Virus record (IMG/VR): IMGVR_UViG_2531839481_000004
Span: 1 to 34,202 of that record
Source of the DNA: a virus
Lineage: Duplodnaviria; Heunggongvirae; Uroviricota; Caudoviricetes
Strand: one strand, 5' to 3'
DNA: 34,202 nt
Shown here: piece by piece, positions 4,847 to 32,412 of the stretch
Position numbering within the stretch: position 1 is the stretch's first letter
Layout: the number at the start of each line of letters is the position of its first letter
Notes under the pieces: generated by a model
What the model saw: only the letters and a program-made list of their open reading frames with translations
Told to the model about the DNA's origin: nothing
Databases searched by the model: none
Translations under genes and position numbers: made by a program

Positions 4847-4864
4847 TGTACAGTTATTCACACA
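4847..4864 (-). promoter_or_regulatory. Ogr/B-type late promoter activator site (TGT-N12-ACA) upstream of FI
   Basis: tgtacagttattcacaca, about 85 bp upstream of the FI start. Confidence 0.45.
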
Positions 4865-4912
4865 AAATGACGGTATTTGTCTGCTTGCAGGGATAATCAA
4901 AATTATGCTGAT

Positions 4913-5479
4913 TCAGGGGGATTCATTGCTCTTATTTGCCGGAAATTTTCTATAAATGGTAGAAACGCCCACATCAAAAATCAGTGCAATACGCTGTCTT
5001 GATTCTCCGGCCTCGAGTAAACGTCCAATCTGTGCCCACTGTTCGGTGGTCAACTTAGGACGGCGTCCACCTACTCTGCCTTTGGCGCGAGCTGCAGCAA
5101 GCCCCGCCCTGGTACGTTCAACTATCAGTTCGCGCTCCATTTCAGCCAGGGCCCCCATGACATGAAAAAAGAAACGGCCCATTGGGGTACTGGTATCAAT
5201 ACTGTCAGTCAGGCTTCGGAAATTCACGCCACGCTGGCGCAGATCTTCTATCAGCGTAACGAGATGCCGCATACTGCGCCCCAACCTGTCCAGCTTCCAG
5301 ACAACCAGAGTGTCACCTGCCGATAATGTCCTGAGCAGTTTTTTCAGTCCCGGTCTGTCGGACTTAGTGCCACTGATTTTGTCCTCAAAAATCCGCTCAC
5401 ATCCCGCGCAGTTCAGTGCATTACGTTGCAAATCGGTGTTCTGGTCATTTGTTGACACGCGTACATAGCCAATAAGCAT
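4913..5479 (-). CDS. serine DNA invertase (Hin/Gin/Cin/Pin family)
   Basis: MLIGYVRVSTNDQ catalytic N-terminus (Ser in VRVST), C-terminal HTH; ATG at 5477-5479 (track start at 5485 is TTG). Confidence 0.9.
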   Translation of the reverse strand: MLIGYVRVSTNDQNTDLQRNALNCAGCERIFEDKISGTKSDRPGLKKLLRTLSAGDTLVVWKLDRLGRSMRHLVTLIEDLRQRGVNFRSLTDSIDTSTPMGRFFFHVMGALAEMERELIVERTRAGLAAARAKGRVGGRRPKLTTEQWAQIGRLLEAGESRQRIALIFDVGVSTIYRKFPANKSNESP

Positions 5480-16929: not shown

Positions 16930-18696
16930 ATGAACACCACACTGACACCCGCAGATCTCGATCCCCGTCGGCAGGCCATGCTGCTGTACTTTCAGGGATA
17001 CCGCGTCGCCCGCATTGCTGAAATGCTGGGCGAGAAAGTTGCAACCGTTCATAGCTGGAAAAAACGCGACAAGTGGGGTGACTATGGGCCGCTGGATCAG
17101 ATGCAGCTCACCACCGCCGCACGCTACTGCCAGCTCATTATGAAGGAGCACAAAGAAGGGAAAGATTTCAAAGAGATTGACCTGCTGGCGCGCCAGTCGG
17201 AGCGCCACGCGCGCATCGGCAAGTTTAACAATGGCGGCAACGAAGCCGACTTAAACCCTAACGTCGCCAACCGCAACAAAGGCCCGCGCCGTCAGCCGGA
17301 AAAGAATGTTTTCACCGATGAACAGATTGAGAAGCTGGAAGAAATATTCCATTCCTCCATGTTCAACTACCAGCGCCACTGGTGGGAAGCCGGAAAAACC
17401 AATCGCATCCGCAACCTGCTGAAGTCTCGCCAGATCGGCGCGACCTTTTACTTTGCCCGTGAAGCCCTGATTGACGCCCTGCTGACCGGGCGTAACCAGA
17501 TTTTCCTTTCTGCCAGCAAGGCTCAGGCTCACGTCTTTAAACAGTACATCATCGACTTTGCCAAAGAAGTAGAGGTGGAGCTGAAAGGCGATCCGATGGT
17601 GCTTCCTAACGGGGCCACGCTTTACTTCCTCGGCACCAATGCCCGCACGGCCCAGAGTTACCACGGCAACCTGTATCTGGATGAATATTTCTGGATACCG
17701 AAATTCCAGGAGCTGCGCAAAGTGGCTTCCGGTATGGCTATTCACAAAAAATGGCGACAAACCTATTTTTCCACGCCATCCAGTCTGACACACAGTGCTT
17801 ATCCGTTCTGGTCCGGTGCGCTGTTCAACCGTGGGCGCAACAAAGCCGATAAGGTGGACATCGACCTGTCCCACAGCAATCTGGCCCCCGGCCTGCTGTG
17901 CGCAGACGGGCAATACCGCCAGATAGTCACCGTGGAAGATGCGGTGCGCGGCGGCTGTAACCTGTTCGACCTTGACCAGTTGCGCATGGAGTACAGCCCG
18001 GACGAATACCAGAACCTGCTGATGTGCGAGTTTGTGGACGATCTCGCGTCCGTGTTCCCGCTCAGCGAGCTGCAGGCGTGCATGGTAGACAGCTGGGAAA
18101 TCTGGACCGACTTTCATGCACTGGCGCTGCGCCCGTTTGGCTGGCGCGAAGTGTGGATCGGTTATGACCCGGCAAAAGGTACGCAGAACGGCGACAGTGC
18201 CGGATGCGTGGTGGTGGCACCGCCAGCCGTACCAGGTGGTAAGTTCCGCATTCTTGAGCGTCACCAGTGGCGCGGAATGGACTTCCGCGCCCAGGCTGAC
18301 GCCATCAAAAAACTGACCGAACAGTATAACGTGACCTACATCGGCATCGACTCAACCGGCGTTGGTCACGGGGTTTACGAGAACGTGAAAGCGTTTTTTC
18401 CTGCCGTCAGGGAGTTTGTCTACAACCCCAACGTTAAAAACGCCCTGGTACTCAAGGCCTACGACATTATCAGCCACCGCCGTCTGGAGTTTGACGCCGG
18501 ACACACCGACATAGCGCAGTCATTTATGGCAATCCGTCGCGCCACCACCGCCAGCGGCAACCGCCCGACCTATGAAGCCAACCGCAGCGAAGAAGCCAGC
18601 CATGCCGATCTGGCCTGGGCAACAATGCACGCACTGTTTAACGAACCGCTGCAGGGCGAGTCCGCCAATACCAGCAATATTGTGGAGATTTTTTGA
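16930..18696 (+). CDS. terminase large (ATPase) subunit gpP
   Basis: 588 aa, synteny, divergent from O. Confidence 0.9.
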   Translation: MNTTLTPADLDPRRQAMLLYFQGYRVARIAEMLGEKVATVHSWKKRDKWGDYGPLDQMQLTTAARYCQLIMKEHKEGKDFKEIDLLARQSERHARIGKFNNGGNEADLNPNVANRNKGPRRQPEKNVFTDEQIEKLEEIFHSSMFNYQRHWWEAGKTNRIRNLLKSRQIGATFYFAREALIDALLTGRNQIFLSASKAQAHVFKQYIIDFAKEVEVELKGDPMVLPNGATLYFLGTNARTAQSYHGNLYLDEYFWIPKFQELRKVASGMAIHKKWRQTYFSTPSSLTHSAYPFWSGALFNRGRNKADKVDIDLSHSNLAPGLLCADGQYRQIVTVEDAVRGGCNLFDLDQLRMEYSPDEYQNLLMCEFVDDLASVFPLSELQACMVDSWEIWTDFHALALRPFGWREVWIGYDPAKGTQNGDSAGCVVVAPPAVPGGKFRILERHQWRGMDFRAQADAIKKLTEQYNVTYIGIDSTGVGHGVYENVKAFFPAVREFVYNPNVKNALVLKAYDIISHRRLEFDAGHTDIAQSFMAIRRATTASGNRPTYEANRSEEASHADLAWATMHALFNEPLQGESANTSNIVEIF

Positions 18697-19724
18697 TGGA
18701 AAAGAGTAAGAAGAACCGCGCTGCGTCGACGAAACAGATCCAGCATAAAAACCAAACTTCAGCCGAAGCATTCAGCTTCGGCGATCCCGTTCCTGTTCTG
18801 GACCGTCGCGAACTGCTGGACTATGTGGAATGCGTACAGATGGATCGCTGGTATGAGCCGCCTGTGAGTTTCGACGGCCTGGCGCGAACCTTCCGCGCCG
18901 CCGTACACCACAGCTCACCGATTGCAGTAAAGTGCAACATTCTGACCAGCACCTATATCCCTCACCCGCTGCTCAGCCAGCAGGCTTTTTCACGTTTTGT
19001 GCAGGACTATCTGGTATTTGGTAACGCCTACCTGGAGAAACGCACGAACCGCTTCGGTGAAGTTATCGCCCTTGAACCTGCGCTGGCAAAATACACCCGA
19101 CGCGGATTAGACCTGGATACCTACTGGTTTGTGCAATACGGCATGACCACGCAGCCGTATCAGTTCACGAAAGGCAGCATTTTTCATCTGATGGAACCGG
19201 ACATCAACCAGGAGATCTACGGCCTGCCAGGCTATCTTTCTGCCATTCCATCCGCCCTGCTCAACGAGTCTGCCACGCTGTTCCGCCGTAAGTATTACAT
19301 CAACGGCAGCCATGCAGGCTTCATCATGTACATGACCGACGCCGCGCAGAATCAGGAGGATGTGAACAATCTCCGCAACGCGATGAAAAGCGCCAAAGGT
19401 CCAGGCAACTTCCGCAACCTGTTTATGTACTCGCCTAACGGCAAAAAGGACGGCCTTCAGATCATCCCTTTGTCAGAAGTTGCGGCGAAGGATGAGTTTC
19501 TGAATATCAAAAATGTCAGCCGCGATGACATGATGGCAGCACATCGCGTTCCGCCACAGATGATGGGGCTTATGCCAAGTAATGTTGGGGGATTTGGGGA
19601 TGTGGAAAAAGCGAGTTTAGTGTTTGTTCGCAATGAGTTAATCCCCCTTCAAAAAAGATTTGAGGAGCTGAATGAATGGATAGAAGAAACAGTAATTAAG
19701 TTTAATGAATATAAATTAAATTGA
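18696..19724 (+). CDS. portal protein gpQ
   Basis: ~343 aa; ATG overlaps the P stop (tgATGg). Confidence 0.9.
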   Translation: MEKSKKNRAASTKQIQHKNQTSAEAFSFGDPVPVLDRRELLDYVECVQMDRWYEPPVSFDGLARTFRAAVHHSSPIAVKCNILTSTYIPHPLLSQQAFSRFVQDYLVFGNAYLEKRTNRFGEVIALEPALAKYTRRGLDLDTYWFVQYGMTTQPYQFTKGSIFHLMEPDINQEIYGLPGYLSAIPSALLNESATLFRRKYYINGSHAGFIMYMTDAAQNQEDVNNLRNAMKSAKGPGNFRNLFMYSPNGKKDGLQIIPLSEVAAKDEFLNIKNVSRDDMMAAHRVPPQMMGLMPSNVGGFGDVEKASLVFVRNELIPLQKRFEELNEWIEETVIKFNEYKLN

Positions 19725-19727
19725 TTA

Positions 19728-19759
19728 ATTCAGTAGTAGCAACTTTAAAGGCGCTACTA
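19728..19759. terminator. bidirectional hairpin between convergent Q and the NTPase gene
   Basis: perfect 10-bp stem cagtagtagc/gctactactg with a 12-nt loop. Confidence 0.4.
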
Positions 19760-19770
19760 CTGAACAAACA

Positions 19771-21435
19771 CTATAAATTGAATTTATGCATTCTTAACTC
19801 ATTCAATTTACTCTCTCTAGAAATCTTCATTAAAGCAGCCTTAGCTTTTATAGAAACAGATCTCGTTTTCTCATTTACATTACCAATACGACTAAATTTC
19901 AGACAAGTAGCAACGTGGGATGTTAAATGATTCCCATGCAAACTTTTAAAATAATGATAATAATCATCTTCAGTAGCGCTACTTAATACTTCTATATCAT
20001 CATCATTCCAGCCATTTTTTCCACTGAGCGCATCCAACACCTCACCTAAAGTGCGCTTGGGTGAATCAGTTAGATACACACCTTTAAATTTCTCAATGAT
20101 TTCTGCATCTTTGATTGGTCTAAAAAGATAAAAATTATCCAGATCAAATAACTCTATTTCACTTCGTCTTTCTTGAATATAATACGTAATCATCTCAGAT
20201 GCCTTTGTATCTTCTCCTAGTTCACGGAAGACCCCAACAAGGCTATCAAGATCATTAGGAGATACTTGAGTTACACAATCCATAAAGCACTTATAAAAAT
20301 GAGAAACAACTTCTTCTACATTATCATCAAAACTATTATGAAATAAATCCCATGCACTTCTAAATGAGTTTGACTTTTTATTTTCTAAAGCCTGTTTATT
20401 TATAATTTTTATTGCCTCATTAAACTCTGTCATATCTATATAACCATTCCTGACTAGCTTTGCTATTTTCCTATCCAGCTCATCAACCCTTGTAAAATTA
20501 TAGCTCAGTAAAATATCCTTCCATTTTTTTTCTTCTTCTGTTACATCCTTTTTGCCTATTGAGTAAATACTTTCCATAGATTCGAGGAAATCCAAAGAGG
20601 GAACATCCTTATCTGATTTAGAGCAATAATAGGCCCAATTCATTAATACAACCGTATGCAAAAATTGCATTTTAACTTCACTTTCGCACTCTTCAAAAGC
20701 TCGCCATGCATTTTCTACGTTTCGCTCTATTTTCTTTAAAACTCTAATATTTTTGATGCCTAACGAAATAGTATATTGTGCTAACGGCTTATGAAAATCC
20801 TTACTATTATCATATGCTATCTGTGCAGATTCACTGGGCGTAGGTGAAAAATGCAACTCAATGTCAATTACTTTTTCTTTAAACTTTTCATAATCAGCAA
20901 CTTCTTTAGTACCATCATTGAGTAAAAGTATAACCTTACATTTCTTTTGTTCTTTTAACAAAGAAATAAGACCTAATACATCTTTAAGTTCTAATGACGA
21001 TCCTTTACGCTCTAAATCATCTATGCAAATTAATGAATCTGACACAGACATAAATGACCATGCTTCTATTGCAGGAGCGGCAGACTTTATATACGGCAGC
21101 TCTTTCAATTTACTCCACGAACCTCGCCCCAATATTTCAAGCATACCTAATGTATTTTTTCTTAAACTATCTAGACTTGGCTCATGTCCTATGGAGTCTT
21201 TTGAAACTGCATTTTCAAAAATGGAATATTTTAATCTATCTAACGAAGATATACCGAAAAGAGAGACATAGGAATAATGCGAAGCAGAAATCATATTTTG
21301 ACACTTTGCTTCCAGAAGAAACTTATTCCAACTAAATGTCTTACCAACTCCCCACTCTCCTTTAATTGCCATAACCGAAGGGGCTGATTTAGAAACAAAG
21401 TTTAGAATTTGTTCTCGTACCAAGCTTAGCGACAT
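19771..21435 (-). CDS. KAP-type P-loop NTPase (554 aa), accessory cargo gene
   Basis: Walker A GEWGVGKT (aa 26-33, nt ~21337-21360), Walker B-like LICIDDLER, no obvious TM helices, AT-rich, ATG with AAGGAG SD. Confidence 0.7.
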   Translation of the reverse strand: MSLSLVREQILNFVSKSAPSVMAIKGEWGVGKTFSWNKFLLEAKCQNMISASHYSYVSLFGISSLDRLKYSIFENAVSKDSIGHEPSLDSLRKNTLGMLEILGRGSWSKLKELPYIKSAAPAIEAWSFMSVSDSLICIDDLERKGSSLELKDVLGLISLLKEQKKCKVILLLNDGTKEVADYEKFKEKVIDIELHFSPTPSESAQIAYDNSKDFHKPLAQYTISLGIKNIRVLKKIERNVENAWRAFEECESEVKMQFLHTVVLMNWAYYCSKSDKDVPSLDFLESMESIYSIGKKDVTEEEKKWKDILLSYNFTRVDELDRKIAKLVRNGYIDMTEFNEAIKIINKQALENKKSNSFRSAWDLFHNSFDDNVEEVVSHFYKCFMDCVTQVSPNDLDSLVGVFRELGEDTKASEMITYYIQERRSEIELFDLDNFYLFRPIKDAEIIEKFKGVYLTDSPKRTLGEVLDALSGKNGWNDDDIEVLSSATEDDYYHYFKSLHGNHLTSHVATCLKFSRIGNVNEKTRSVSIKAKAALMKISRESKLNELRMHKFNL

Positions 21436-21528
21436 AACTCACTCCTTGATTGCGAATGTTAATTATATATTTTACCAAAAATCTTAATCACCACCTATAG
21501 AAAGGTGAAAGATGGGTGCTGGCGCGCG

Positions 21529-21547
21529 CTCGTATCCCCGCCACGCC
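21529..21547 (-). other. candidate cos cohesive-end sequence
   Basis: minus strand GGCGTGGCGGGGATACGAG followed by CGCGCGC; first 13 nt identical to the remembered 186 cohesive end, orientation relative to Q as in P2. Confidence 0.45.
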
Positions 21548-21569
21548 TGCCCGCTTTATGTAGTGGTTT

Positions 21570-21672
21570 TCATGCACCTGCATGTTCTACGTAAAAGCCC
21601 GCTAGTTCTGGCGAGCCTTAGCAAAAACGATCCTTAAACGATCATGCGATTTCATGCAGCATAGTCATGCAC
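21570..21672. repeat. cluster of four TCATGC(A) motifs including the palindrome CATGCACCTGCATG
   Basis: copies at ~21570, 21642, 21652 and 21665; palindrome at 21571-21584. Confidence 0.3.
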
Positions 21673-21869
21673 TGTCTAAGAGAAGTGAAAGTCCGTATCT
21701 GAATGACCACTTGAGAAACGAAACATACAGACTTACAAAGATGAAGCTCTACTGTGAGCGAGGAACATACATAGTTGCTCTGTAATAGCCAAATTTTAAG
21801 CAGGAAATCTCTTTTTTATGACAAAACTATAAAGAAAAACAGACCGTTTCATCGCTCGATGAAAATATA

Positions 21870-23447
21870 CTACAATACTTTTCTCTCGATGGTATTTTTA
21901 ATGGTCAACATATCTTTAGGAATACTTTTTTTCCCCTCTATACGTATGGTAAACACAAAAAGAATAACGGCTGATCTCACAATTTTCATGAGTTGTAAGA
22001 GCTGTTTCTCAAACTTTTCTTTCTCAATAAACCTCACCTCATCAAAAAATCCATAAGAATTATATAAATCAACTAACATGTCTTTCTCGTGAATAACTAA
22101 CAGTTTATGTTCTAAATCATTCCTCCATTCTTTAAAAAAAGCAAGCTCACCATTTTTATCATTCAAATCCATAGCAATACTAAACAAACCCAGCAATCCT
22201 TTATTATTTATTTTGTTTATTTTAAGCTTTCTTTTTTCATCACTAATCCGCCAGAAGTTATGAAAGTATATATGTCCTCTATCTGGTTTTAAATCAAATA
22301 ATTGACACAGAGCAACTGCTATTTTATCCAAGATACCAAAGCAAGCTCTAAATGCAACCCTTAACTTCTCAACATTTTCATACAATATTTCTCCATTATA
22401 CAATTCAGAATAACATACCTCCGAATCCTCATCAAAAAACTCACTATCAACCTTATATTCAAAAAACATTTTTCGTGCTAAGGAATACTCAGCTTTAAGT
22501 CTATTTAACACCATTTCCATTGGCACTATAAAATCACCAAACACACCTTCCTCGGTGGTCGCAATAGTTATATTATCTTTAGATGACGCATAACAATTGC
22601 AATATAGCGAATGATCAGACAACATTAGATTATTATCTATACAAAACCTCTGGTAGTTTGATAAAGTATCATACTCCTCCTGCGTGAGCCTTTCATCTGT
22701 ACTTATATCCTCTATGCCATATACACATGATTCACTCAATATACTTTCGTTGTACTTTATTTTTCTTTGAAGAGCAACCTTCCATGAAGGAAAACATTTC
22801 CCTGACTTTATTGCACACTCATAACCTCGAATAACTTCTTTAATCATTTTATATGTATATGTTGTAGATAATTCATTAAGCAATTCTAATGCCTCAGATC
22901 TGTTTACCCACGCCTGAGGAATTGAGTTATCAATAGATATTGCTTGTTCATAATAATCCATTGATTCAGACATACGATATTGTTTTTTTAATACATTAGC
23001 TAGATTAACTATTAAATCAGGGGGCACCCATCCATCTTCTTGTGAAAGTTTAAACGCTTTCCAGTAATTATTTTTTACATCATTCAGCTTAATGAAACTA
23101 TCAATATCTGCATTGTCATTAGGATTAAAATCAAGAACTGCGCTCATTCCATTTGCCAAGTTATAGTAATATAAGGATTCTTTCATTATAGTCAGAAATT
23201 CATTTTTATTGTTTATAAAGATATTTAAGCCTTCCTCCGCTATATTTTTTACATTACTAAAATTTCCGATATCAATAAGATTTCCGGCCAAATTAGATAA
23301 TATAATTATTCTATTTTCTTTGATTGTATTTATCTCATCGATACCGTTAAGAATATCCTTTACATTTTTATAGGCAGAATCAAATGAACCTGCATTAATA
23401 AGATCATCTACGACCCCCATTTTTGAAACAACATAGTTGATATCCAT
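21870..23447 (-). CDS. 525-aa protein with helical-repeat N-terminal region and C-terminal HEPN-like domain (Rx4H motif WRNDLEHK), accessory cargo gene
   Basis: ATG with AGAGGA SD; strongly AT-rich; R442-x4-H447 motif (nt ~22107-22124); occupies the tin/old position between cos and A. Confidence 0.65.
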   Translation of the reverse strand: MDINYVVSKMGVVDDLINAGSFDSAYKNVKDILNGIDEINTIKENRIIILSNLAGNLIDIGNFSNVKNIAEEGLNIFINNKNEFLTIMKESLYYYNLANGMSAVLDFNPNDNADIDSFIKLNDVKNNYWKAFKLSQEDGWVPPDLIVNLANVLKKQYRMSESMDYYEQAISIDNSIPQAWVNRSEALELLNELSTTYTYKMIKEVIRGYECAIKSGKCFPSWKVALQRKIKYNESILSESCVYGIEDISTDERLTQEEYDTLSNYQRFCIDNNLMLSDHSLYCNCYASSKDNITIATTEEGVFGDFIVPMEMVLNRLKAEYSLARKMFFEYKVDSEFFDEDSEVCYSELYNGEILYENVEKLRVAFRACFGILDKIAVALCQLFDLKPDRGHIYFHNFWRISDEKRKLKINKINNKGLLGLFSIAMDLNDKNGELAFFKEWRNDLEHKLLVIHEKDMLVDLYNSYGFFDEVRFIEKEKFEKQLLQLMKIVRSAVILFVFTIRIEGKKSIPKDMLTIKNTIERKVL

Positions 23448-23734: not shown

Positions 23735-23968
23735 TTAATGCAGCCAGCTGTCGTCTTCCCACACCTTCTGCATAATTTTCATCACTTGCTTCCTTTCTTC
23801 GTCCAGTTGCAGTCCGGTTAGTTCCACACCGTTAGAGCTACCTTTGCGAATGCGAATTACCGTTTTGGGATACAGGGGGCGCAGATTGCGGTAAAGCTCG
23901 GATTCAAGGGCGTCCAGGGTAGACTGGCTAATCTTCTGCTCTTTATCGATCATTATTTCAATGCGCAT
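23735..23968 (-). CDS. DinI-like protein (77 aa)
   Basis: MRIEIMIDK...LDALESEL...QKVWEDDSW resembles E. coli DinI; ATG with GAGGTGA SD. Confidence 0.75.
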   Translation of the reverse strand: MRIEIMIDKEQKISQSTLDALESELYRNLRPLYPKTVIRIRKGSSNGVELTGLQLDEERKQVMKIMQKVWEDDSWLH

Positions 23969-24320: not shown

Positions 24321-26735
24321 TTAATACAGGTTTCGCCACTTATCATCTTCCTGCAAACGCTGGTTCCGATAGAAGATACGCAGGCCTGCTCCTGACGGAA
24401 TACTGCCGCCGCGAAGGAGTAAATCGACCTCTTTCTCGCTGCCATTAAATCCTCTGGACTTCAGTTCATAGACGAGCTGCTGTCGCTGATGGTCTGTAAT
24501 TCGCTGTTTGTAGTCTTTACGCCGTTTCGGTTTCACCAGGCGTAACCTTGCAGCCAGTTCCCTGCGCTCTTTTTTGCTCATACTGTGCAGGTAATCGTGC
24601 AACTCCTTGTCATCCATGCGGATAATGTCCGTTCTGGTGTCCCCATCAGCTGATTTATCTTTCTCCTGTTGGTTCAAATTTTCAGCAAGGGGACAGTTAT
24701 TGCCACGAGTCCAAGGGGCGCAAGCGCCCTGGTCGGCTGCCGCCTCCTGAACGTCAACGGCCTTACGAACCATTTTCCACTTCACGGCATGAGTGCAGAT
24801 TTTGCCCTCTGCAATGGGTGACCAGATGCCATAAATACGAATGCCGTGATCGCCATAGGCGGTCGGCTCTTCGTTGATTTCATAAGCGGTTCTGATGAGG
24901 TGATATTTACGGGGAACCAGTACGCCGCCCTGCTTCATGATGTAGGTGGCAAAACAACCAGCATCAGCTGCAGCCAGAATGGCATCAAGGCGCGGGTTAT
25001 CCAGTACCGGCGCACCTGCTTTTTTGTCACCCTGTTGCCTTGCCGCCTGACCAGCCAGCAATCGCAGTTCACGGTAAGCCTGACGCCCCGGAATGCCAAA
25101 GAAGCGGAATTGCTGAACACGATGCAGAGACGCCCAGGCATTAACGTATTCAGCGTTATCACGCAGAGATTTACCCGTTTCCTTGCTGATCTCGCCAGCC
25201 AGACCACGCCCGTCAATGTTCTTACTGATGTATTTCGCGATGTAGCTAGTCGGCGTTCCTTTGCGCGGGTTTATCAGCTCAGACTTAAAGCGTGGCCCCG
25301 TGTTATTACCCAGCTCCTCGCGGTCTTCACGGATAGCAAACTTACGCAACAATGCAGTAATGGCGCGGCGGTCTTTTTTGCGCATGAAACACAACAGGTG
25401 CCAGTGAACTGTGCCGTCATGATGCGGCTCAGCCACCCGCACGCCATACCAGCGCAACCCGGCTTTGTGCATCGCCTTACGAAATGCAGCAAACATGCCG
25501 ACCAGATAATCACTGCTTTGTCTTACCGTCGCATTTGTCCAGGTCGGGTTGGGCCTACCGTTATTTAGCGTGGAATGGAAACGTGACGGACAGGTGATGG
25601 TGTAGAAAACGGCGCAGTCACCGCGCATTTCCGCGATAAGCTCCAGACCTTTAACACAGGCCATCATCTCATTGCGGCGATGCGCAGGGTTGCTGCTGCT
25701 GGCGTTTACCACATCCTCCATGTCCAGCGTGTCGCCGTCTTCGTTCACCAGTTCATGAGAACGGAAAAACTCCAGCGACTTACGGCGCTGCTCACGTTTA
25801 TGCATCACGGCTTCATAGCTGACATAGGGAGATGCTTTTTTGCTGACCAGGCAAACAGCACGCAACTGCTCTTCCCGCCATTCGCAACGCATCTTCCACA
25901 ATTTCCGATACCACCAGTCGGCGCACAGCATACGCGCCAGCGACCCCGGAATGAGTTCATAGGGCACGGGTTTACGGCGGTTTCTTTTCCGGCGGAGTTG
26001 CTCAAACGCAGGCGGTATGACATCCAGTCGCAGGGTTTCCGCCGCCACCTTTTCCCATGTCTTGCGGATTTCTTCTGGCTTAACGTCATCGGTGGCATAC
26101 AAATCGCCACAAGCGGCATCAAGGCACATGCTCATATGCGCAGCTACCAGGGTGGACAGGCGTTTCACCTGATCCTGACTCATTTCAGGCAGGATCAGCA
26201 GACCGTCCAGCCCTTCATGGCTTGCCATAAAGCGAAAAGAAGTGGATAGCTGACTGTCGCGTACATGCTCCAGTCGTTCCAGACATGGCTTAATCGTCTC
26301 ACGCAAATAGCGGGAATAAGCCTTTGGCCTGCCCAGGCTGCTGAAGTATTCAATACGTTGCATCAGCGGCTTGCTGATATGGGAAGGCTGGGCGTTAACG
26401 TCCGCCAGAATGACCATGCCCGGATTAAAACGCTGCTGCTCATGCGCCAGCTTTGCCCGGCTAATGAGCTTATCCTGCTCCATTTCGCGCTGGACAGGAT
26501 CACGTGATTCATTAAAGAAATAACGCTCCCATACCTGATCACTCAGAGCCTCGCGGCGCAGTTGTTCCTGCTCGTTATCGGTAGCGTACAGAGTGATCAG
26601 GTTTGAAAGCGCAGAAACCGGCGCAACTTCCGCCGGGTCCAGATAAGGGTTAATGGCCTTTTTCGGGCTGTTCCATGAGAATGCTGCGGCGACCTCGTTA
26701 AAGCCGCTGCAGTTGTTCATATCAGCATGGCTCAT
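24321..26735 (-). CDS. replication initiation protein A (rolling-circle nickase, P2 gpA family)
   Basis: [13 protein letters not shown] and [13 protein letters not shown] motifs shared with P2 A. Confidence 0.9.
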
Positions 26736-27589
26736 GCACGCACTCCGTACACGGCAGAACTATCCACGCCACGCGAAGGATCAAATCCCACCCAGCAGCG
26801 CGGCCCGGAAACAGCGATGATTTCTGTTGCAGATTTACTCTCACCAGCTGCTACACCGATGCTGCGTTTTGCCTTGATGTAGTGGTGAGTAAAATTGCGA
26901 TACAGCGAACGGATCAGGGATGTATCACTGTTAGAAACAATGACCGGATGTCCTTCTGATGACCGATGTTCAAGAACGGATGCCAGGTGATACTGGTCAT
27001 CTTCAGTGAAACCATCAGTGTGATAGCCGGAAAACGTACCGTCATACGGCGGATCGCAATACACCACATCCCCCACCTGCAGCATCGCCAGCGTTTCATC
27101 AAAGCTTGCGCAGATAAACGTTGCTCGCTGGGCTTTTTCTGCAAATGTGCGAAGTTCTTTTTCAGGGAAATACGGATTTTTATAATTACCGTAGGGAATG
27201 TTGAAATGCCCGCTCTTGTTATAGCGACATAAACCACGGTAACCGTGACGATTGAGATACAGGAAATATACCGCTTTCATGAAATCAGTAATTTCAGTGG
27301 AGTAATTAAACTCCTGCCTTATGTTGTAATAAGCCACCTCCCTGTTTGCGATCTCAAATAAAACTCTGGCGCGAGATATAAACGATTCACAATCAGCGGC
27401 AACCTTTTTATAGAGGTTGATTAAATCAGGATTAATATCCGCAACCAGATAGCTGGGGTAATCCGTCTCCATCATCACAGCACAAGAACCCGCGAAAGGT
27501 TCAACCAGTCGCGGGCCTGCAGGAAGGTGTTTTTTCAGTTCGGACATAATGGCGGTTTTATTACCCGCCCATTTCAGGATGGTGCTCAT
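26732..27589 (-). CDS. DNA adenine methyltransferase (Dam-like, N6-A MTase)
   Basis: [12 protein letters not shown]-terminus, FAGSCAV SAM-binding motif, DPPY catalytic motif; ATG at 27587-27589 with GGAGGTG SD. Confidence 0.85.
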
Positions 27590-27888
27590 ACAGCACCTCC
27601 TGCAATAACATATCCTAAAGCTTCTAATGGGGTTAATGAGCGAATTGATAGCATCACCCATTGTTCTGAAACTGCCATGACGTCATTAACCGGAAGCACA
27701 TGAGAGATAACCGCGGCCCATTCCCTACCCGTAAATACGCCATGCTTCCATTCGCAAAGAGAAAGAACATCACCAACTTTATAGCCACGATCGTCTTTAC
27801 GAAGTTCAGCCGTCTTTTGACCTGCAACCACAGCGTTGAAATACTTAGGTGCAATTTTTAATTGATGGATACGCACAGCCCCTGTCAT
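27586..27888 (-). CDS. ASCH-domain-like small protein
   Basis: 100 aa; pattern resembling ASCH/PUA-like domains; ATG with GGAGGTG SD. Confidence 0.5.
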
Positions 27889-29175: not shown

Positions 29176-29685
29176 TCACAGCAAACCGAATGAAGCACCG
29201 AGGCCAGTCACGGTATCAACTGCACTCACCATCGCAGGATTAGCCTGTAAACGGGCCTGCAATGAAACAGCCGCCAGCGCCATCAGTCGTGTTACAGAGT
29301 TAATGCTGCTGATAGCATCACGACGACCGGCACTAGTTTTTACATCACCAGATACCGCACCTGCTGCAACACGCCCGATCTCTGCAGTTGCGCTCATGAC
29401 GTAATGCGGCAGTTTCTCTTTTGCCACCTCATTAATCGGTACACATGGCAGACAATGAATCTGTGCCAGAAAACCATCTACCAGCGTTGAATCTTCAGTC
29501 AGATCGGTAAGCAGCCAGATTTCTGGTGCGGTTAATAAATGAGGCTGAGCTGGGTTCAGCTTGTTCCGCAGAATCTGCACATTCATGCCTGCACGTTCTG
29601 CCAGTTGCACCAGGTTGTGACGCAGTGCAAAAGCCCTACAGGCTTCATCGAAATGCGGATGTTTGGAAATCTTGTAATCAAACAT
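29176..29685 (-). CDS. cII: 186-type CII lysogeny-establishment activator
   Basis: 169 aa, [19 protein letters not shown]...[21 protein letters not shown] closely resembles phage 186 CII. Confidence 0.8.
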
Positions 29686-30081: not shown

Positions 30082-30714
30082 ATGTTAAACATCAGAATGG
30101 GTTCCGATACGGGAGGTAAGGCAGCTATTGAGAGGCTGCTTGAGGCTTATGGATTCACAACTAAGCAGGCATTAAGCGAGCACCTGAATGTCTCAAAAAG
30201 TACTATGGCAAACAGAGTGTTACGTGACAGTTTTCCTGCTGACTGGATAATTCAGTGTGCACTAGAAACCGGTGTTTCGTTACTTTGGTTAGCCACTGGA
30301 CAGGGAAGCATGAAAGAAGGATACGAGCCTGAGAAAAGATCTCATAACGAGAACAAACAAGCAATTAAACCGTTATCCAAACTCATAACTCCATCTATTC
30401 CTAAAGGAACCTTGGAAAATGGACAACTCAGTATTGATGAAGAGATTTTCCTAGACCACAGCATATTACCTGCAGATTATGAAGAATCGATGTTCTTAGA
30501 AACCCCTACTGATTGTTATCTCATCGATAAATCAGTTAAACAAGTCAGCAATGGATTCTGGCTTATCAATATTGATGGAATGATTATTATTGCAAAAATC
30601 ATGCGGATTCCCGGCAATAAGATTGTAGTAAATCAAGATGAAGCGTCTTTCGAGTGCTCTGCTGATGATGTGGAAGTTATTGGGCGTGCAGTCAAAGTAA
30701 TAAAGAGTATCTAA
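30082..30714 (+). CDS. cI: 186-type CI immunity repressor
   Basis: 210 aa, N-terminal HTH, followed directly by int; GGAGA SD. Confidence 0.8.
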   Translation: MLNIRMGSDTGGKAAIERLLEAYGFTTKQALSEHLNVSKSTMANRVLRDSFPADWIIQCALETGVSLLWLATGQGSMKEGYEPEKRSHNENKQAIKPLSKLITPSIPKGTLENGQLSIDEEIFLDHSILPADYEESMFLETPTDCYLIDKSVKQVSNGFWLINIDGMIIIAKIMRIPGNKIVVNQDEASFECSADDVEVIGRAVKVIKSI

Positions 30715-30716
30715 AC

Positions 30717-31733
30717 ATGACTGTCAGAAAACAGCCAAACGGTAAATGGTTGTGCGAGTGCTATCCCAATGGACGCAATGGCAAGCGCGTGCGTAAGCAA
30801 TTTGCTACGAAAGGCGAAGCCATTGCTTTTGAAAGCTTCACAATGGAAGAAGTGAACAAAAAACCATGGCTGGGGGAAAAGGAAGATCGGCGACACCTAT
30901 CAGAATTAATTGAGCAGTGGTATTCCCTGTATGGTCAAACACTCGCAGACCCCAAGCGCCTCATAGCGAAACTTAGAATTATCTGTAATGGTCTAGGCGA
31001 TCCCATCGCTTCAGAACTGACAGCCGGTGACTTTACGAAATACCGCGAAGCACGGTTAAAAGGTGAAGTACGAAATGAAGATGGCACGTTTATGTCGCCC
31101 GTTAAGCCCCGCACGGTAAACCTTGAACAGCGCAATCTATCATCTGTTTTTGGTACACTGAAAAAGCTGGGCCACTGGTCAGCCCCCAACCCGCTTGCTG
31201 GGCTGCCAACATTTAAAATTGCTGAGAGTGAATTGGCGTTCCTGACCCCGGAAGAAATTAAACGTCTGCTGGATGCCTGCGCCGATTCTCAAAGCTCCAG
31301 CCTGCTTTTGATTGCAAAAATATGCCTGGCCACCGGCGCACGCTGGAGCGAAGCCGAAAACCTGCAGAGTCATCAGGTATCAAAATACCGTATCACTTAT
31401 ACCAAGACCAAAGGCAAGAAAAACCGAACTGTGCCTATTTCTAAGGATTTATATGAAGAACTGCCTAAGAATAGGGGGAAGTTATTCACCCCATGCAGAA
31501 AAGCCTTTGAGCGTGCAGTAAAGCGGGCTGGTATCGATCTGCCAGAGGGTCAATGTACTCACGTTCTGCGTCATACATTCGCTAGCCATTTTATGATGAA
31601 TGGTGGAAACATATTGGTTTTGCGGGATATCCTAGGACATTCAGATATAAAAATGACCATGGTCTATGCACACTTCGCCCCAGACCATTTAGAAGATGCC
31701 GTAACTAAAAATCCTTTATTTAATTTGAGGTAA
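30717..31733 (+). CDS. int: tyrosine integrase
   Basis: 338 aa, C-terminal HVLRHTFASHF...LGHSDIKMTMVYAH catalytic region (R..HxxR..Y). Confidence 0.9.
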   Translation: MTVRKQPNGKWLCECYPNGRNGKRVRKQFATKGEAIAFESFTMEEVNKKPWLGEKEDRRHLSELIEQWYSLYGQTLADPKRLIAKLRIICNGLGDPIASELTAGDFTKYREARLKGEVRNEDGTFMSPVKPRTVNLEQRNLSSVFGTLKKLGHWSAPNPLAGLPTFKIAESELAFLTPEEIKRLLDACADSQSSSLLLIAKICLATGARWSEAENLQSHQVSKYRITYTKTKGKKNRTVPISKDLYEELPKNRGKLFTPCRKAFERAVKRAGIDLPEGQCTHVLRHTFASHFMMNGGNILVLRDILGHSDIKMTMVYAHFAPDHLEDAVTKNPLFNLR

Positions 31734-31743
31734 GTAGTAATTT

Positions 31744-32412
31744 ATGAATAGCGAACTAGAGTTACTTATAAAAATATTATTCTCTTCCCTATCTGCCATT
31801 ATATCCTTATTAGGGCTTAAAACAGGGTGGACTTATAAAAAAGACAAACTATTCACATCACGTAAAAACATTAGCGAATTTTCATATCAGATGTATAAAA
31901 GCAGTGAAGATCCGACCTTCAAAAAACTGGCGGAAGATTACGGCATTGCTGCATTAACCAAAGATAACACATTGACAAAAAAACAAAGATTAATATTACT
32001 CAACACAACAAACCCCGTTAGCGATATAGATGATTATTCCAAATGTCAAAGTCTAATTTCCATTACCACCCATAAAGAAATATTCGCATGGAATAAAAAA
32101 AGATATAAATACAGCATATATAGAAAATTAATAAAAATTATAACAACTCTAATTTACTTCATGGGCAGTCTCATCGTAGCACTTCCTTTCAGTTATTCTG
32201 TTGTAGTAAGTGCTAAGATGATGGAGAAGATAAACCATCTAACTACTTGGCAATACTTTGGTTTAAGCAGCTATTTTGTGGTATCGGGAGTAGCAATATG
32301 CTTTATCTGCCTAGATAAGCTCTCCAAGATTAAGATCGCCGAGAGATTAATCGTTTCAAATAGGCGTTTAGGCGACAAATGCAGTGGCGTCACTTTGGCG
32401 GCAGAAAGTTAA
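31744..32412 (+). CDS. AT-rich membrane protein (222 aa), lysogeny-expressed cargo gene
   Basis: ATG 10 bp after int stop with GAGG SD; three hydrophobic helices; lies between int and attR. Confidence 0.6.
   Translation: MNSELELLIKILFSSLSAIISLLGLKTGWTYKKDKLFTSRKNISEFSYQMYKSSEDPTFKKLAEDYGIAALTKDNTLTKKQRLILLNTTNPVSDIDDYSKCQSLISITTHKEIFAWNKKRYKYSIYRKLIKIITTLIYFMGSLIVALPFSYSVVVSAKMMEKINHLTTWQYFGLSSYFVVSGVAICFICLDKLSKIKIAERLIVSNRRLGDKCSGVTLAAES

What the first reader, a model, noticed from the sequence alone, without database searches (positions are those of the whole stretch)
19725..21528. KAP-type P-loop NTPase inserted between portal gene Q and cos
Seen: 554-aa ORF with Walker A GEWGVGKT and a Walker B-like IDDLER, no obvious TM segments, markedly AT-rich against the GC-rich flanking phage backbone, convergent with Q and sharing a hairpin with it (19728-19759), with its own AT-rich promoter-like region (TATAAT-like hexamer) immediately inside the cos-like motif. 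Established: in P2 and 186, Q ends close to cos; the ends of P2-like prophages around cos are recognised hotspots for anti-phage cargo; KAP NTPases are enriched in defence islands. Inference: a horizontally acquired accessory gene, plausibly an anti-phage or abortive-infection NTPase, sitting in an unusual slot at the extreme left end of the packaged genome.
Basis: partly seen in the sequence, partly recalled or inferred. Interest (0 to 1): 0.75.

Follow-up and report, generated by a model that had tools for sequence, protein, structure and literature searches.

The report
Candidate anti-phage NTPase in P2-prophage hotspot
A real, intact gene for a soluble KAP-type ATPase sits between the portal gene and the packaging site of a 186/P2-like E. 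coli prophage; it is most likely a single-gene phage-defence cargo, but its position is a long-known, usually occupied cargo hotspot rather than an unusual slot.

Summary
A 554-aa ORF (19771-21435, minus strand) has 33% GC against a 55% GC backbone. It carries Walker A GEWGVGKT and Walker B LICIDDLE-R and has no transmembrane segment. It is convergent with portal gene Q across a strong hairpin and starts 87 bp from a 186-type cos site.

It passes Pfam KAP_NTPase weakly, matches the PADLOC candidate family PDC-S49 (E 1e-29), and matches phrog_4740 (function unknown) over its full length. The family is large, with about 1,160 50%-identity clusters at E<=1e-30. It has a fixed architecture and is under purifying selection (dN/dS about 0.08). 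Members occur singly in P2-like prophages, P4-like satellites, lambdoid prophages and plasmids.

The N-terminal 250 residues fold like ORC/Cdc6 AAA+ ATPases. They are homologous (hhalign 98.9%) to Reve, a KAP-type gene from the P4 hotspot that a 2026 preprint shows to be anti-phage. The C-terminal 300 residues form a helical solenoid with no recognisable enzyme fold and no detected similarity to Reve's C-terminal part.

The "unusual slot" claim fails. The Q-cos interval has been proposed as a hotspot since 1996. It exceeds 500 bp in 56 of 67 species-level loci and holds retrons, AIPR, PARIS, bSEFIR and AbiL elsewhere. Verdict: a plausible, untested new member of a known kind, of modest interest.

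The parts
19771..21435 (-). 554-aa soluble KAP-type P-loop NTPase gene (RefSeq WP_001518830.1, 'P-loop NTPase fold protein')
   Evidence: ORF; RefSeq annotation; Pfam KAP_NTPase 23.9 bits and PADLOC PDC-S49 E 1.1e-29; phrog_4740 E 1e-131; dN/dS 0.08-0.09
20686..21435 (-). N-terminal ATPase core plus lid (residues 1 to about 250). Walker A is at 21337-21360 and Walker B-R at 21007-21033. The lid motif N229-x-R231 is invariant.
19774..20685 (-). C-terminal all-alpha domain (residues about 251-554), solenoid-like, with no recognisable enzyme fold
19729..19764 (.). Hairpin between the convergent stop codons of Q and the NTPase gene; probable shared terminator, with a U-rich tail only in the NTPase direction
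   Evidence: dG -18.8, z -5.7. It is conserved only in loci that carry this gene (E. coli CI5, Salmonella), so it travels with the cargo. Other cargoes carry their own hairpins at this position.
21436..21521 (-). Cargo-specific 86-bp upstream region with TATAAT (21462-21467), extended -10 TGgTAAAAT (21469-21477) and SD AAGGAG (21442-21447)
   Evidence: Partly conserved in the Salmonella allele (TATAGT). Not picked up by the consensus scan.
21522..21673 (.). Conserved 186-type cos module; the 19-nt cohesive end is 21529-21547. Only 7-8 bp of conserved sequence lie on the Q side of the cohesive end.
   Evidence: Homology with other prophages and phages spans exactly this stretch. The SEN8 genome end maps to 21548 and its annotated cos to the adjacent 19 nt.
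18693..19724 (+). Portal gene Q. Its last approximately 60 nt (about 19663-19724) are AT-rich and belong to the swapped cargo module.
21870..23447 (-). Neighbouring cargo on the other side of cos (the classical old/tin slot): a TPR + LA2681-type HEPN protein. It is not part of the NTPase unit.
   Evidence: Pfam HEPN_LA2681 E 1.7e-38. It assorts independently of the NTPase.

Best explanation
The gene is a self-contained, single-gene accessory module carried in the cos-proximal cargo hotspot of a 186/P2-like prophage. It most likely protects the lysogen against other phages.

Proposed mechanism (inferred): the protein is an ATP-gated switch. Its N-terminal half is an ORC/Cdc6-like (KAP/STAND-related) ATPase core plus lid, and all its nucleotide-binding motifs are invariant. 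Its C-terminal half is a helical solenoid with no catalytic signature and most plausibly acts as the surface that recognises a phage-made protein or DNA-protein complex. On recognition, ATP binding and hydrolysis would drive oligomerisation on the target, or remodelling or sequestration of it. That would block phage replication directly, rather than through a nuclease- or NADase-type killing domain.

Shown here: gene integrity, purifying selection, the fold of both halves, homology of the ATPase module to the validated Reve defence protein, the mobility pattern, and the defence-rich nature of the slot.

Inferred: that it confers phage resistance at all, what triggers it, and how infection is stopped.
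For: Family and fold:
- PADLOC PDC-S49 E 1e-29 and Pfam KAP_NTPase above cut-off.
- Invariant residues are G26, W28, G29, G31, K32, D139, D140, R143, N229, R231 and R548. No catalytic-type constellation appears in the C-terminal domain.

Link to validated defence:
- Reve (pFD425) gives 10^2- to 10^6-fold protection against Drexlerviridae.
- Reve shares GEWGVGKT and IDDLER with this protein (BLASTP E 5e-10, hhalign 98.9%, E 2.8e-17 over about 250 residues).
- Reve also matches PDC-S49.
- Other KAP NTPases fused to unknown C-terminal regions are Walker-B-dependent defences (PMC12632615). Tmn is another example.

Context:
- The same Q-cos slot holds retron Ec67, retron St85, AIPR, and a 44%-identical paralogue of this gene in other E. 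coli genomes.
- Across species it holds bSEFIR, AbiLi, AriA/PARIS, PD-T7-4, PD-T4-9, TIR, Schlafen and DndB.
- Homologues sit singly in a Yersinia P4-like satellite hotspot, in a Cronobacter lambdoid prophage next to AbiJ-like and pentapeptide genes, and on plasmids from Nostoc to Legionella.

Selection: dN/dS is 0.08-0.09. About 1,160 clusters at E<=1e-30 are nearly all full length.
Against: - No experiment on this family was found. PDC-S49 is only a candidate and appears in none of the papers searched. phrog_4740 is 'unknown function'.
- Homology to Reve stops at the ATPase module, and the C-terminal halves show no detectable similarity. The validated phenotype therefore cannot simply be transferred.
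- No effector domain is recognisable, so the 'direct interference' step is a guess.
- The Pfam KAP match is weak (23.9 bits), and the protein lacks the transmembrane insert typical of classical KAP proteins.
- Some homologues (Aeromonas, Shewanella) sit among housekeeping genes with no visible mobile-element or defence context.
- Not every cargo gene in defence hotspots is a defence gene. The 2026 preprint (DOI 10.64898/2026.02.27.708500) reports predicted defence signal in only 15-32% of unknown P2 cargo proteins.
Confidence: 0.62

Rival explanations
1. The gene is accessory cargo with a non-defence role. Examples: an anti-defence or counter-satellite factor, a modulator of P2-P4 conflict or of packaging at the adjacent cos, or a lysogenic-conversion function acting on the host.
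For: The gene starts 60-90 bp from cos in P2-like prophages and in a P4-like satellite. A decayed cos even accompanies it into a Cronobacter lambdoid prophage. Its closest structural relatives (ORC/Cdc6, TnsC, MuB) are ATP-dependent DNA-binding loaders. Hotspots also hold non-defence genes.
Against: Closeness to cos is a property of the slot and is shared by unrelated cargoes (retrons, AIPR, PARIS). Many homologues have no cos nearby (Pseudomonas, Aeromonas, Shewanella, plasmids). The only functional data on relatives (Reve, EF_KAP, Tmn, PifA) are anti-phage.
Confidence: 0.2
2. It works as a two-gene system with the TPR-HEPN gene on the other side of cos. Both lie on the minus strand, 434 bp apart, so the NTPase could regulate a HEPN RNase effector.
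For: Same strand and adjacent, both AT-rich (GC 0.33 and 0.31). The pair occurs together in two genomes. An NTPase sensor paired with a HEPN effector would be a familiar logic.
Against: The two genes assort independently. The identical NTPase (WP_001518830.1) sits next to an HNH endonuclease instead of HEPN in E. coli CI5. The 93% Salmonella allele has different neighbours. The HEPN gene occurs with retron Ec67 or other Q-side cargo in at least 9 genomes. Homologues elsewhere are singletons. The cos site, cut at every packaging event, lies between the two genes.
Confidence: 0.05
3. It has a virion, packaging or other core phage function.
For: It lies next to the portal and terminase genes and cos.
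Against: P2 and 186 have no gene there. The family occupies the slot in only 4 of 67 species-level loci. It is detectable in 131 of 5,426 complete E. coli genomes, against about 2,100 with a matching Q or cos. No close homologue exists in 50,697 deposited phage genomes. It also occurs on plasmids and chromosomes.
Confidence: 0.02
4. It is inert or decaying cargo with no current function.
For: Rare in E. coli; no consensus promoter was detected.
Against: The 554-codon ORF is intact in 33% GC DNA. dN/dS is 0.08-0.09. All ATPase motifs are invariant. There is a good Shine-Dalgarno and an exact TATAAT.
Confidence: 0.04

Closest known systems
Reve (single-gene KAP/AAA P-loop defence system from the P4-satellite hotspot; bioRxiv 10.64898/2026.02.27.708500, plasmid pFD425)
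   Same: Both are single soluble proteins of about 550-590 aa with identical Walker A (GEWGVGKT) and near-identical Walker B (IDDLER). The ATPase-plus-lid module is homologous (hhalign 98.9%, E 2.8e-17). Both match PADLOC PDC-S49, and both resemble ORC by fold. Both are carried in the cargo slot that abuts the same side of a P2-type cos.
   Different: The C-terminal approximately 300 residues show no detectable similarity. Identity is 23% even in the ATPase part. Reve's family is small (48 hits, Enterobacterales), whereas this family is very large. Reve reads towards cos from the integrase side of a satellite; this gene reads away from cos towards Q. Reve is experimentally validated; this gene is not.
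PADLOC candidate family PDC-S49 / PHROG phrog_4740
   Same: Direct profile matches: PDC-S49 at E 1.1e-29 and phrog_4740 at E 1.2e-131 over the full length.
   Different: Only profile positions 28-397 of 624 of PDC-S49 are matched. Both entries are unvalidated or 'unknown function', so they add classification but no mechanism.
Classical KAP NTPases in defence: PifA (F plasmid), Tmn, EF_KAP
   Same: KAP-type P-loop with a helical C-terminal extension of unknown function. Where tested, defence depends on the Walker B motif.
   Different: Tmn and EF_KAP have transmembrane helices; this protein has none. No direct sequence comparison with those proteins was possible here, so relatedness beyond the Pfam family is untested.
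Retron Ec67/Ec86 insertions in 186-related prophages (Dodd & Egan 1996) and the gpA-gpQ hotspot of Rousset et al. 2022
   Same: Same backbone type: CI, CII/CP76, integrase, a Dam methylase next to gene A, and DinI. The slot is exactly the same. E. coli ECCTRSRTH03 has retron Ec67 between Q and cos with the same HEPN gene beyond cos.
   Different: Different cargo. The published hotspot is treated as one A-to-Q region. Here cos splits it into two independently assorting slots.
ORC/Cdc6, TnsC, MuB (AAA+ initiator/loader ATPases) and STAND NTPases (CED-4, NLRs, RdrA)
   Different: Sequence identity is 8-17%. No winged-helix domain follows the lid, and no separate effector or partner gene is present. 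This is a fold resemblance only.

Membership tests
KAP family P-loop NTPase (Pfam PF07693) | Match to the family profile above the curated threshold | tested here: met
   23.9 bits against a cut-off of 20, E 2.9e-5, residues 10-208. This is a weak pass. Several homologues carry a precomputed PF07693 hit.
KAP family P-loop NTPase (Pfam PF07693) | Walker A GxxGxGK[ST] and Walker B hhhhDD followed by L-[DE]-R | tested here: met
   GEWGVGKT at 26-33 and LICIDDLER at 135-143. These are invariant in 131 representatives. That DDL[DE]R is a KAP signature is from my own memory, not a tool result.
KAP family P-loop NTPase (Pfam PF07693) | Transmembrane helices inserted in the P-loop domain (typical of many KAP proteins, not all) | tested here: not met
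   The maximum Kyte-Doolittle 19-residue window is 1.13. The insert between Walker A and B (residues 88-129) consists of amphipathic, low-confidence helices.
KAP family P-loop NTPase (Pfam PF07693) | Alpha-helical C-terminal extension | tested here: met
PADLOC PDC-S49 (candidate single-gene defence) | Profile match | tested here: met
   E 1.1e-29, 101.7 bits, but only profile positions 28-397 of 624.
PADLOC PDC-S49 (candidate single-gene defence) | Demonstrated anti-phage activity | not testable with these tools
   No paper in the library mentions PDC-S49.
Reve defence system | Homology over the ATPase module | tested here: met
   BLASTP E 5e-10 at 23% identity over residues 1-236; hhalign 98.9%.
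Reve defence system | Full-length homology, including the C-terminal region that presumably sets specificity or effect | tested here: not met
   Neither BLASTP nor profile-profile alignment extends beyond about residue 250. Neither family appears in the other's homologue list.
Cargo of the P2-like cos-proximal (gpA-gpQ) defence hotspot | Located between replication gene A and portal gene Q, next to cos | tested here: met
   Gene order in window coordinates: Q 18693-19724, NTPase, cos 21522-21673, HEPN, DinI, A.
Cargo of the P2-like cos-proximal (gpA-gpQ) defence hotspot | Variable content with known defence systems at the same position in related elements | tested here: met
   Retron Ec67, retron St85, AIPR. 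bSEFIR, AbiLi, AriA, PD-T7-4, PD-T4-9, TIR, Schlafen. 56 of 67 loci have at least 500 bp in the slot.
AAA+ ORC/Cdc6 initiator clade | ATPase core plus lid fold similarity | tested here: met
AAA+ ORC/Cdc6 initiator clade | C-terminal winged-helix DNA-binding domain | tested here: not met
   The C-terminal part is purely helical with no beta elements.
STAND NTPase immune sensors (Avs/NLR-like) | NTPase core, helical sensor repeats and a distinct effector domain | tested here: inconclusive

The most novel reading that the evidence does not exclude
This very large and so far uncharacterised family (phrog_4740 / PDC-S49-like) could be an effector-less immune ATPase. In that reading a soluble ORC/Cdc6-like switch is fused to a private helical sensor and stops phages by ATP-dependent loading onto, or sequestration of, a phage replication or packaging complex, with no nuclease, NADase or membrane effector involved. 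A bolder version: its repeated tight linkage to P2-type cos sites reflects a functional tie to cos/terminase. That linkage is seen in P2-like prophages, in a P4-like satellite, and as a fossil cos carried into a lambdoid prophage. Such a tie would make it a weapon in helper-satellite or P2-P2 packaging conflicts.
Probability: 0.12. Interest if true: 0.65.

Novelty: new member of a known kind. Interest (0 to 1): 0.33.

Why it matters
If it is confirmed as a defence gene, one experiment would assign a function to a family of over a thousand 50%-identity clusters. The family spreads on prophages, satellites and plasmids from Enterobacterales to cyanobacteria and is currently labelled only 'P-loop NTPase fold protein'.

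Comparing it with Reve would be informative. The two share an ATPase module but have unrelated helical C-terminal halves. That makes them a natural pair for asking whether the C-terminal domain sets phage specificity in KAP-type defences.

The locus also shows that the published gpA-gpQ hotspot is really two slots separated by cos. Their contents assort independently. The Q-side slot is the positional counterpart of the P4 hotspot, which may be how cargo moves between helper phage and satellite.

None of this overturns current understanding.

Tried and rejected
- Searching for the P2 cohesive end GGCGAGGCGGGGAAAGCAC with up to 3 mismatches found nothing. The site is 186-type and was located by eye and by homology instead.
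- NCBIfam gave no hit for either cargo protein.
- Rfam gave no RNA family anywhere in the window, so no retron ncRNA or similar is hidden beside the gene.
- A profile search of PDB sequences gave nothing below E 0.05.
- The consensus promoter scan found no more sites than shuffled sequence does, and none upstream of the gene.
- Foldseek against AFDB50 was not available.
It was repeated without that row.
- The two-gene NTPase + HEPN system was considered and rejected on co-occurrence.
- A packaging or virion role was rejected on distribution.
- The count of 94 of 2,147 E. coli genomes with the Q end and cos within about 750 bp is only a rough indicator. Distant Q matches and P4 cos sites inflate the denominator. 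The species-level survey is the cleaner estimate.
Full report
**1. What is there**

The window is a 186/P2-like prophage of Escherichia coli. It is 100% identical to E. coli isolate AF5, NZ_OZ547033.1.

The gene order around the finding is as follows (window = L001 + 16,499):

| Feature | Coordinates | Strand |
|---|---|---|
| Terminase P | 16930-18696 | + |
| Portal Q | 18693-19724 | + |
| 554-aa ORF | 19771-21435 | - |
| cos module | 21522-21673 | . |
| 525-aa TPR + HEPN_LA2681 ORF | 21870-23447 | - |
| DinI-like gene | 23735-23968 | - |
| Replication gene A | 24321-26735 | - |
| Dam methylase | downstream of A | - |

- Walker A GEWGVGKT is at residues 26-33.
- Walker B LICIDDLE-R is at residues 135-143.
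- No hydrophobic window approaches transmembrane values; the maximum is 1.13.
- GC is 0.33 against 0.55 for P and Q.

A 12-bp-stem hairpin at 19729-19764 fills the 46-bp gap between the two convergent stop codons. Its dG is -18.8 kcal/mol and its z-score is -5.7.

The 86 bp between the start codon and the cos module contain three elements on the coding strand:
- a good Shine-Dalgarno sequence (AAGGAG);
- an exact TATAAT;
- an overlapping extended -10 (TGgTAAAAT).

There is no -35 match, so the consensus scanner does not report a promoter here.

The cohesive end GGCGTGGCGGGGATACGAG lies at 21547->21529. The end of the deposited Salmonella phage SEN8 genome maps to window position 21548, and SEN8's annotated cos is the adjacent 19 nt.

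**2. The gene is real and functional-looking**

- A word-indexed search returned more than 1,300 homologues. The best 120 are nearly all full length at 554-560 aa, down to 46% identity, in Salmonella, Pantoea, Serratia, Yersinia, Vibrio, Shewanella, Pseudomonas and Aeromonas.
- An exhaustive phmmer search of 1.84 billion cluster representatives gave 3,745 hits at E<=1e-3 and 1,160 at E<=1e-30. Most of the top 150 align end to end.
- dN/dS against the Salmonella allele is 0.089. Against an Enterobacteriaceae allele it is 0.082.
- Across 131 representatives at 31-43% identity, the invariant residues are G26, W28, G29, G31, K32, Y54, D139, D140, R143, G155, K188, N229, R231, G331 and R548. That set covers Walker A, Walker B, a lid N-x-R motif and a C-terminal arginine.

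**3. What kind of protein it is**

Sequence profiles:
- Pfam KAP_NTPase is matched just above threshold, at 23.9 against 20 bits.
- The PADLOC candidate defence family PDC-S49 is matched at E 1e-29.
- PHROGs phrog_4740, of unknown function, is matched at E 1e-131 over the full length.
- NCBIfam gives nothing.

Structure:
- An AlphaFold2 model has mean pLDDT 82.6. Confidence is low only for residues 98-126, in the insert between Walker A and B.
- The C-terminal 314 residues, modelled alone (pLDDT 86.7), are purely helical.
- Conserved positions in that half are mostly aromatic or hydrophobic, with no catalytic-looking set.

The protein is therefore a soluble KAP-type ATPase switch fused to a private helical domain. 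It has no recognisable effector.

**4. Link to validated defence proteins**

A 2026 preprint (10.64898/2026.02.27.708500) tested unknown genes from P4-satellite hotspots. [quoted passage not shown] Its plasmid pFD425 reduced plaquing of Drexlerviridae by 10^2 to more than 10^5 fold.

I recovered the Reve sequence from the preprint's Dataset E1 and translated it. The comparison gave these results:
- Reve has the same GEWGVGKT motif and an IDDLER motif.
- It aligns to the window protein at 23% identity over residues 1-236, E 5e-10.
- It matches PDC-S49.
- As a family profile, it aligns to this family with 98.9% probability, E 2.8e-17.
- That alignment covers only the first approximately 250 residues. 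The C-terminal halves show no detectable similarity.

Other KAP NTPases with unknown C-terminal regions were shown to be Walker-B-dependent, non-abortive defences in Enterococcus (PMC12632615). Tmn is a membrane KAP defence protein.

Defence is therefore the best-supported function. It is inferred by analogy and context, not shown for this family.

**5. The slot is not unusual**

In P2 and 186, about 140 bp separate cos from the terminator tQ/tW that follows the portal gene.

The literature already names this interval as a hotspot:
[quoted passage not shown] - Rousset et al. 2022 define the P2 hotspot as the cos-proximal region between gpA and gpQ, with 18,150 loci and 1,650 gene arrangements.

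The Q-cos slot held the following:

| Source | Content of the Q-cos slot |
|---|---|
| E. coli ECCTRSRTH03 and AF3 | retron Ec67 |
| E. coli 2018-18.25PC | an AIPR protein |
| E. coli Combat13F7 | retron St85 |
| E. coli 2014C-3075 | a 44%-identical paralogue of this NTPase |
| E. coli CI5 | the identical NTPase |
| Salmonella | a 93%-identical allele (cluster of 426 sequences) |
| Phage SEN8 | a hypothetical gene plus an HNH endonuclease |

A survey of one genome per species gave 80 P2-like loci fetched, in 67 of which both the Q end and cos were located:
- The Q-stop-to-cos distance has a median of 1,677 bp.
- Only 10 loci have 250 bp or less.
- 56 loci have 500 bp or more.
- 103 of 120 ORFs in the slot read from cos towards Q, as this gene does.
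- Four loci carry this NTPase family: Citrobacter pasteurii, Pantoea leporis, Pantoea sp. NSTU24 and an Enterobacteriaceae bacterium.

Profile scans of 104 slot ORFs hit many defence families. These include bSEFIR, AbiLi, AriA (PARIS), PD-T7-4, PD-T4-9, PDC-M11, PtuA-like ATPases, TIR, AbiC, DndB, Schlafen, RES and Fic.

A rougher E. coli count points the same way. Of 2,147 genomes matching the Q end and/or cos, only 94 have both within about 750 bp.

**6. A self-contained mobile unit**

The NTPase and the HEPN gene assort independently:
- NTPase with HEPN occurs in 2 genomes.
- NTPase with an HNH endonuclease occurs in CI5.
- HEPN occurs with retron Ec67 or with other Q-side cargo in at least 9 genomes.

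More distant homologues occur singly in several settings:
- next to the integrase of a Yersinia P4-like satellite;
- in a Cronobacter lambdoid prophage beside AbiJ-like and pentapeptide genes;
- near an integrase fragment in Pseudomonas;
- among housekeeping genes in Aeromonas and Shewanella;
- on plasmids of Pantoea, Nostoc, Rhizobium, Legionella, Klebsiella and E. coli.

No close homologue exists in 50,697 deposited phage genomes.

In complete E. coli genomes the identical allele occurs in 3 of 5,426. The wider family is detectable at DNA level in 131, always annotated as 'P-loop NTPase fold protein'. This patchy distribution rules out a core virion or packaging role.

**7. Anatomy of the module**

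On the cos side, homology with other elements begins at window 21522. That is 7-8 bp beyond the cohesive end. Each cargo brings its own 60-90 bp upstream region.

On the Q side, the junction lies inside Q:
- The last approximately 20 residues of Q differ with each cargo.
- In 56 occupied loci, the last 63 nt of Q average 37% GC against 52.5% for the preceding 300 nt.
- In the 10 empty loci there is no such drop. The Mann-Whitney P is about 1e-5.

The hairpin after Q is conserved only where this NTPase is present. Other cargoes bring their own hairpins.

The same cos module, in the same orientation, precedes the homologue in the Yersinia P4-like satellite. A decayed copy, with a 5-nt deletion in the cohesive end, precedes the homologue in the Cronobacter lambdoid prophage. 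In the Reve construct the P4 cos abuts the cargo on the same side.

The Q-cos slot of P2-like phages and the int-cos hotspot of P4-like satellites are therefore positional counterparts. This offers a route for cargo exchange through the shared cos.

**8. Most likely mechanism, and its weakness**

I propose an ATP-gated sensor. The helical C-terminal domain would recognise a phage product. The ORC/Cdc6-like module would then oligomerise on it or remodel it, blocking replication without a separate killing enzyme.

The steps that are shown:
- intact motifs and purifying selection;
- the fold of both halves;
- homology of the ATPase module to Reve;
- a defence-rich slot;
- single-gene mobility.

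The steps that are inferred:
- any phage-resistance phenotype;
- the trigger;
- oligomerisation;
- the lack of an effector, which rests on negative evidence only.

I give 0.62 to 'single-gene anti-phage defence' overall. I give perhaps a quarter of that to the specific direct-interference mechanism.

**9. Verdict**

The finding is a new, untested member of a known kind. It is a KAP-type single-gene defence candidate, already catalogued as PDC-S49 and phrog_4740, in a well-studied hotspot. Interest is modest. Its main value is as a tractable partner to Reve for working out how effector-less KAP ATPases stop phages.

Noticed in passing
window 21870-23447 (minus strand): A 525-aa TPR + LA2681-type HEPN protein (Pfam E 1.7e-38, GC 0.31) occupies the classical old/tin slot on the other side of cos. 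No PADLOC system is assigned to it (only weak TPR and Csx1/Csm6 hits), and it has no PHROG. It recurs at over 99% identity in at least 10 other E. coli prophages with different Q-side cargo. It is a second unassigned defence candidate.
   Followed up: partly
window about 19663-19724 (3' end of Q); loci L024-L103: The cargo module's left junction lies inside the portal gene. In 56 occupied loci the last 63 nt of Q average 37% GC against 52.5% upstream, while 10 empty-slot loci show no drop (P about 1e-5). Q's last approximately 20 residues change with the cargo, and empty-slot phages have a longer C-terminal tail. Each swap therefore replaces the portal's C-terminus.
   Followed up: partly
L018 about 4870-4915 (Yersinia P4-like satellite); L016 about 4860-4905 (Cronobacter lambdoid prophage); alignment A5: Homologues of the NTPase in a P4-like satellite and in a lambdoid prophage are preceded by the same P2-type cos module in the same orientation. 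In Cronobacter it is decayed, with a 5-nt deletion in the cohesive end. This suggests a cos-plus-cargo unit that moves between helper phages, satellites and unrelated prophages.
   Followed up: partly
window 21522-21673 versus 19771-23447: The published gpA-gpQ hotspot is really two slots separated by cos, and their contents assort independently. In the Q-side slot, 103 of 120 ORFs read from cos towards Q. Only 7-8 bp of conserved sequence lie on the Q side of the cohesive end, against about 125 bp on the other side.
   Followed up: yes
window 31744-32412 (plus strand): An AT-rich (GC about 0.36) 222-aa ORF lies directly after the integrase and before the host gene csiD (33225-). It has no Pfam hit and only a faint PADLOC 1TM-TIR match (E 0.007). 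It may be cargo of the minor integrase-att hotspot described in the 2026 preprint (10.64898/2026.02.27.708500).
   Followed up: partly
L020, L022, L007: the 25 nt upstream of the homologues' start codons: Homologues in Pseudomonas, Aeromonas and Shewanella share a near-identical leader, GCGTTATGCATTTTTGAAGGA(A/G)CA, despite 48% protein identity to the window gene and unrelated surroundings. This hints at a conserved regulatory or translation-initiation element that travels with the gene.
   Followed up: no
window 19774-19800 (codons for residues about 545-554): R548, near the extreme C-terminus, is one of only 15 residues invariant across 131 diverse family members. N545 is nearly invariant. 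A C-terminal arginine this conserved could act as an arginine finger or a latch on the ATPase site.
   Followed up: no
window 26732-27661, 29176-29685 and 30082-31733; L002: The backbone has a 186-type CI, CII/CP76, an integrase, and a Dam methylase beside gene A. This is the same type as the retron-Ec67-carrying prophage. E. coli ECCTRSRTH03 has retron Ec67 exactly where this window has the NTPase, with the same HEPN gene beyond cos.
   Followed up: partly
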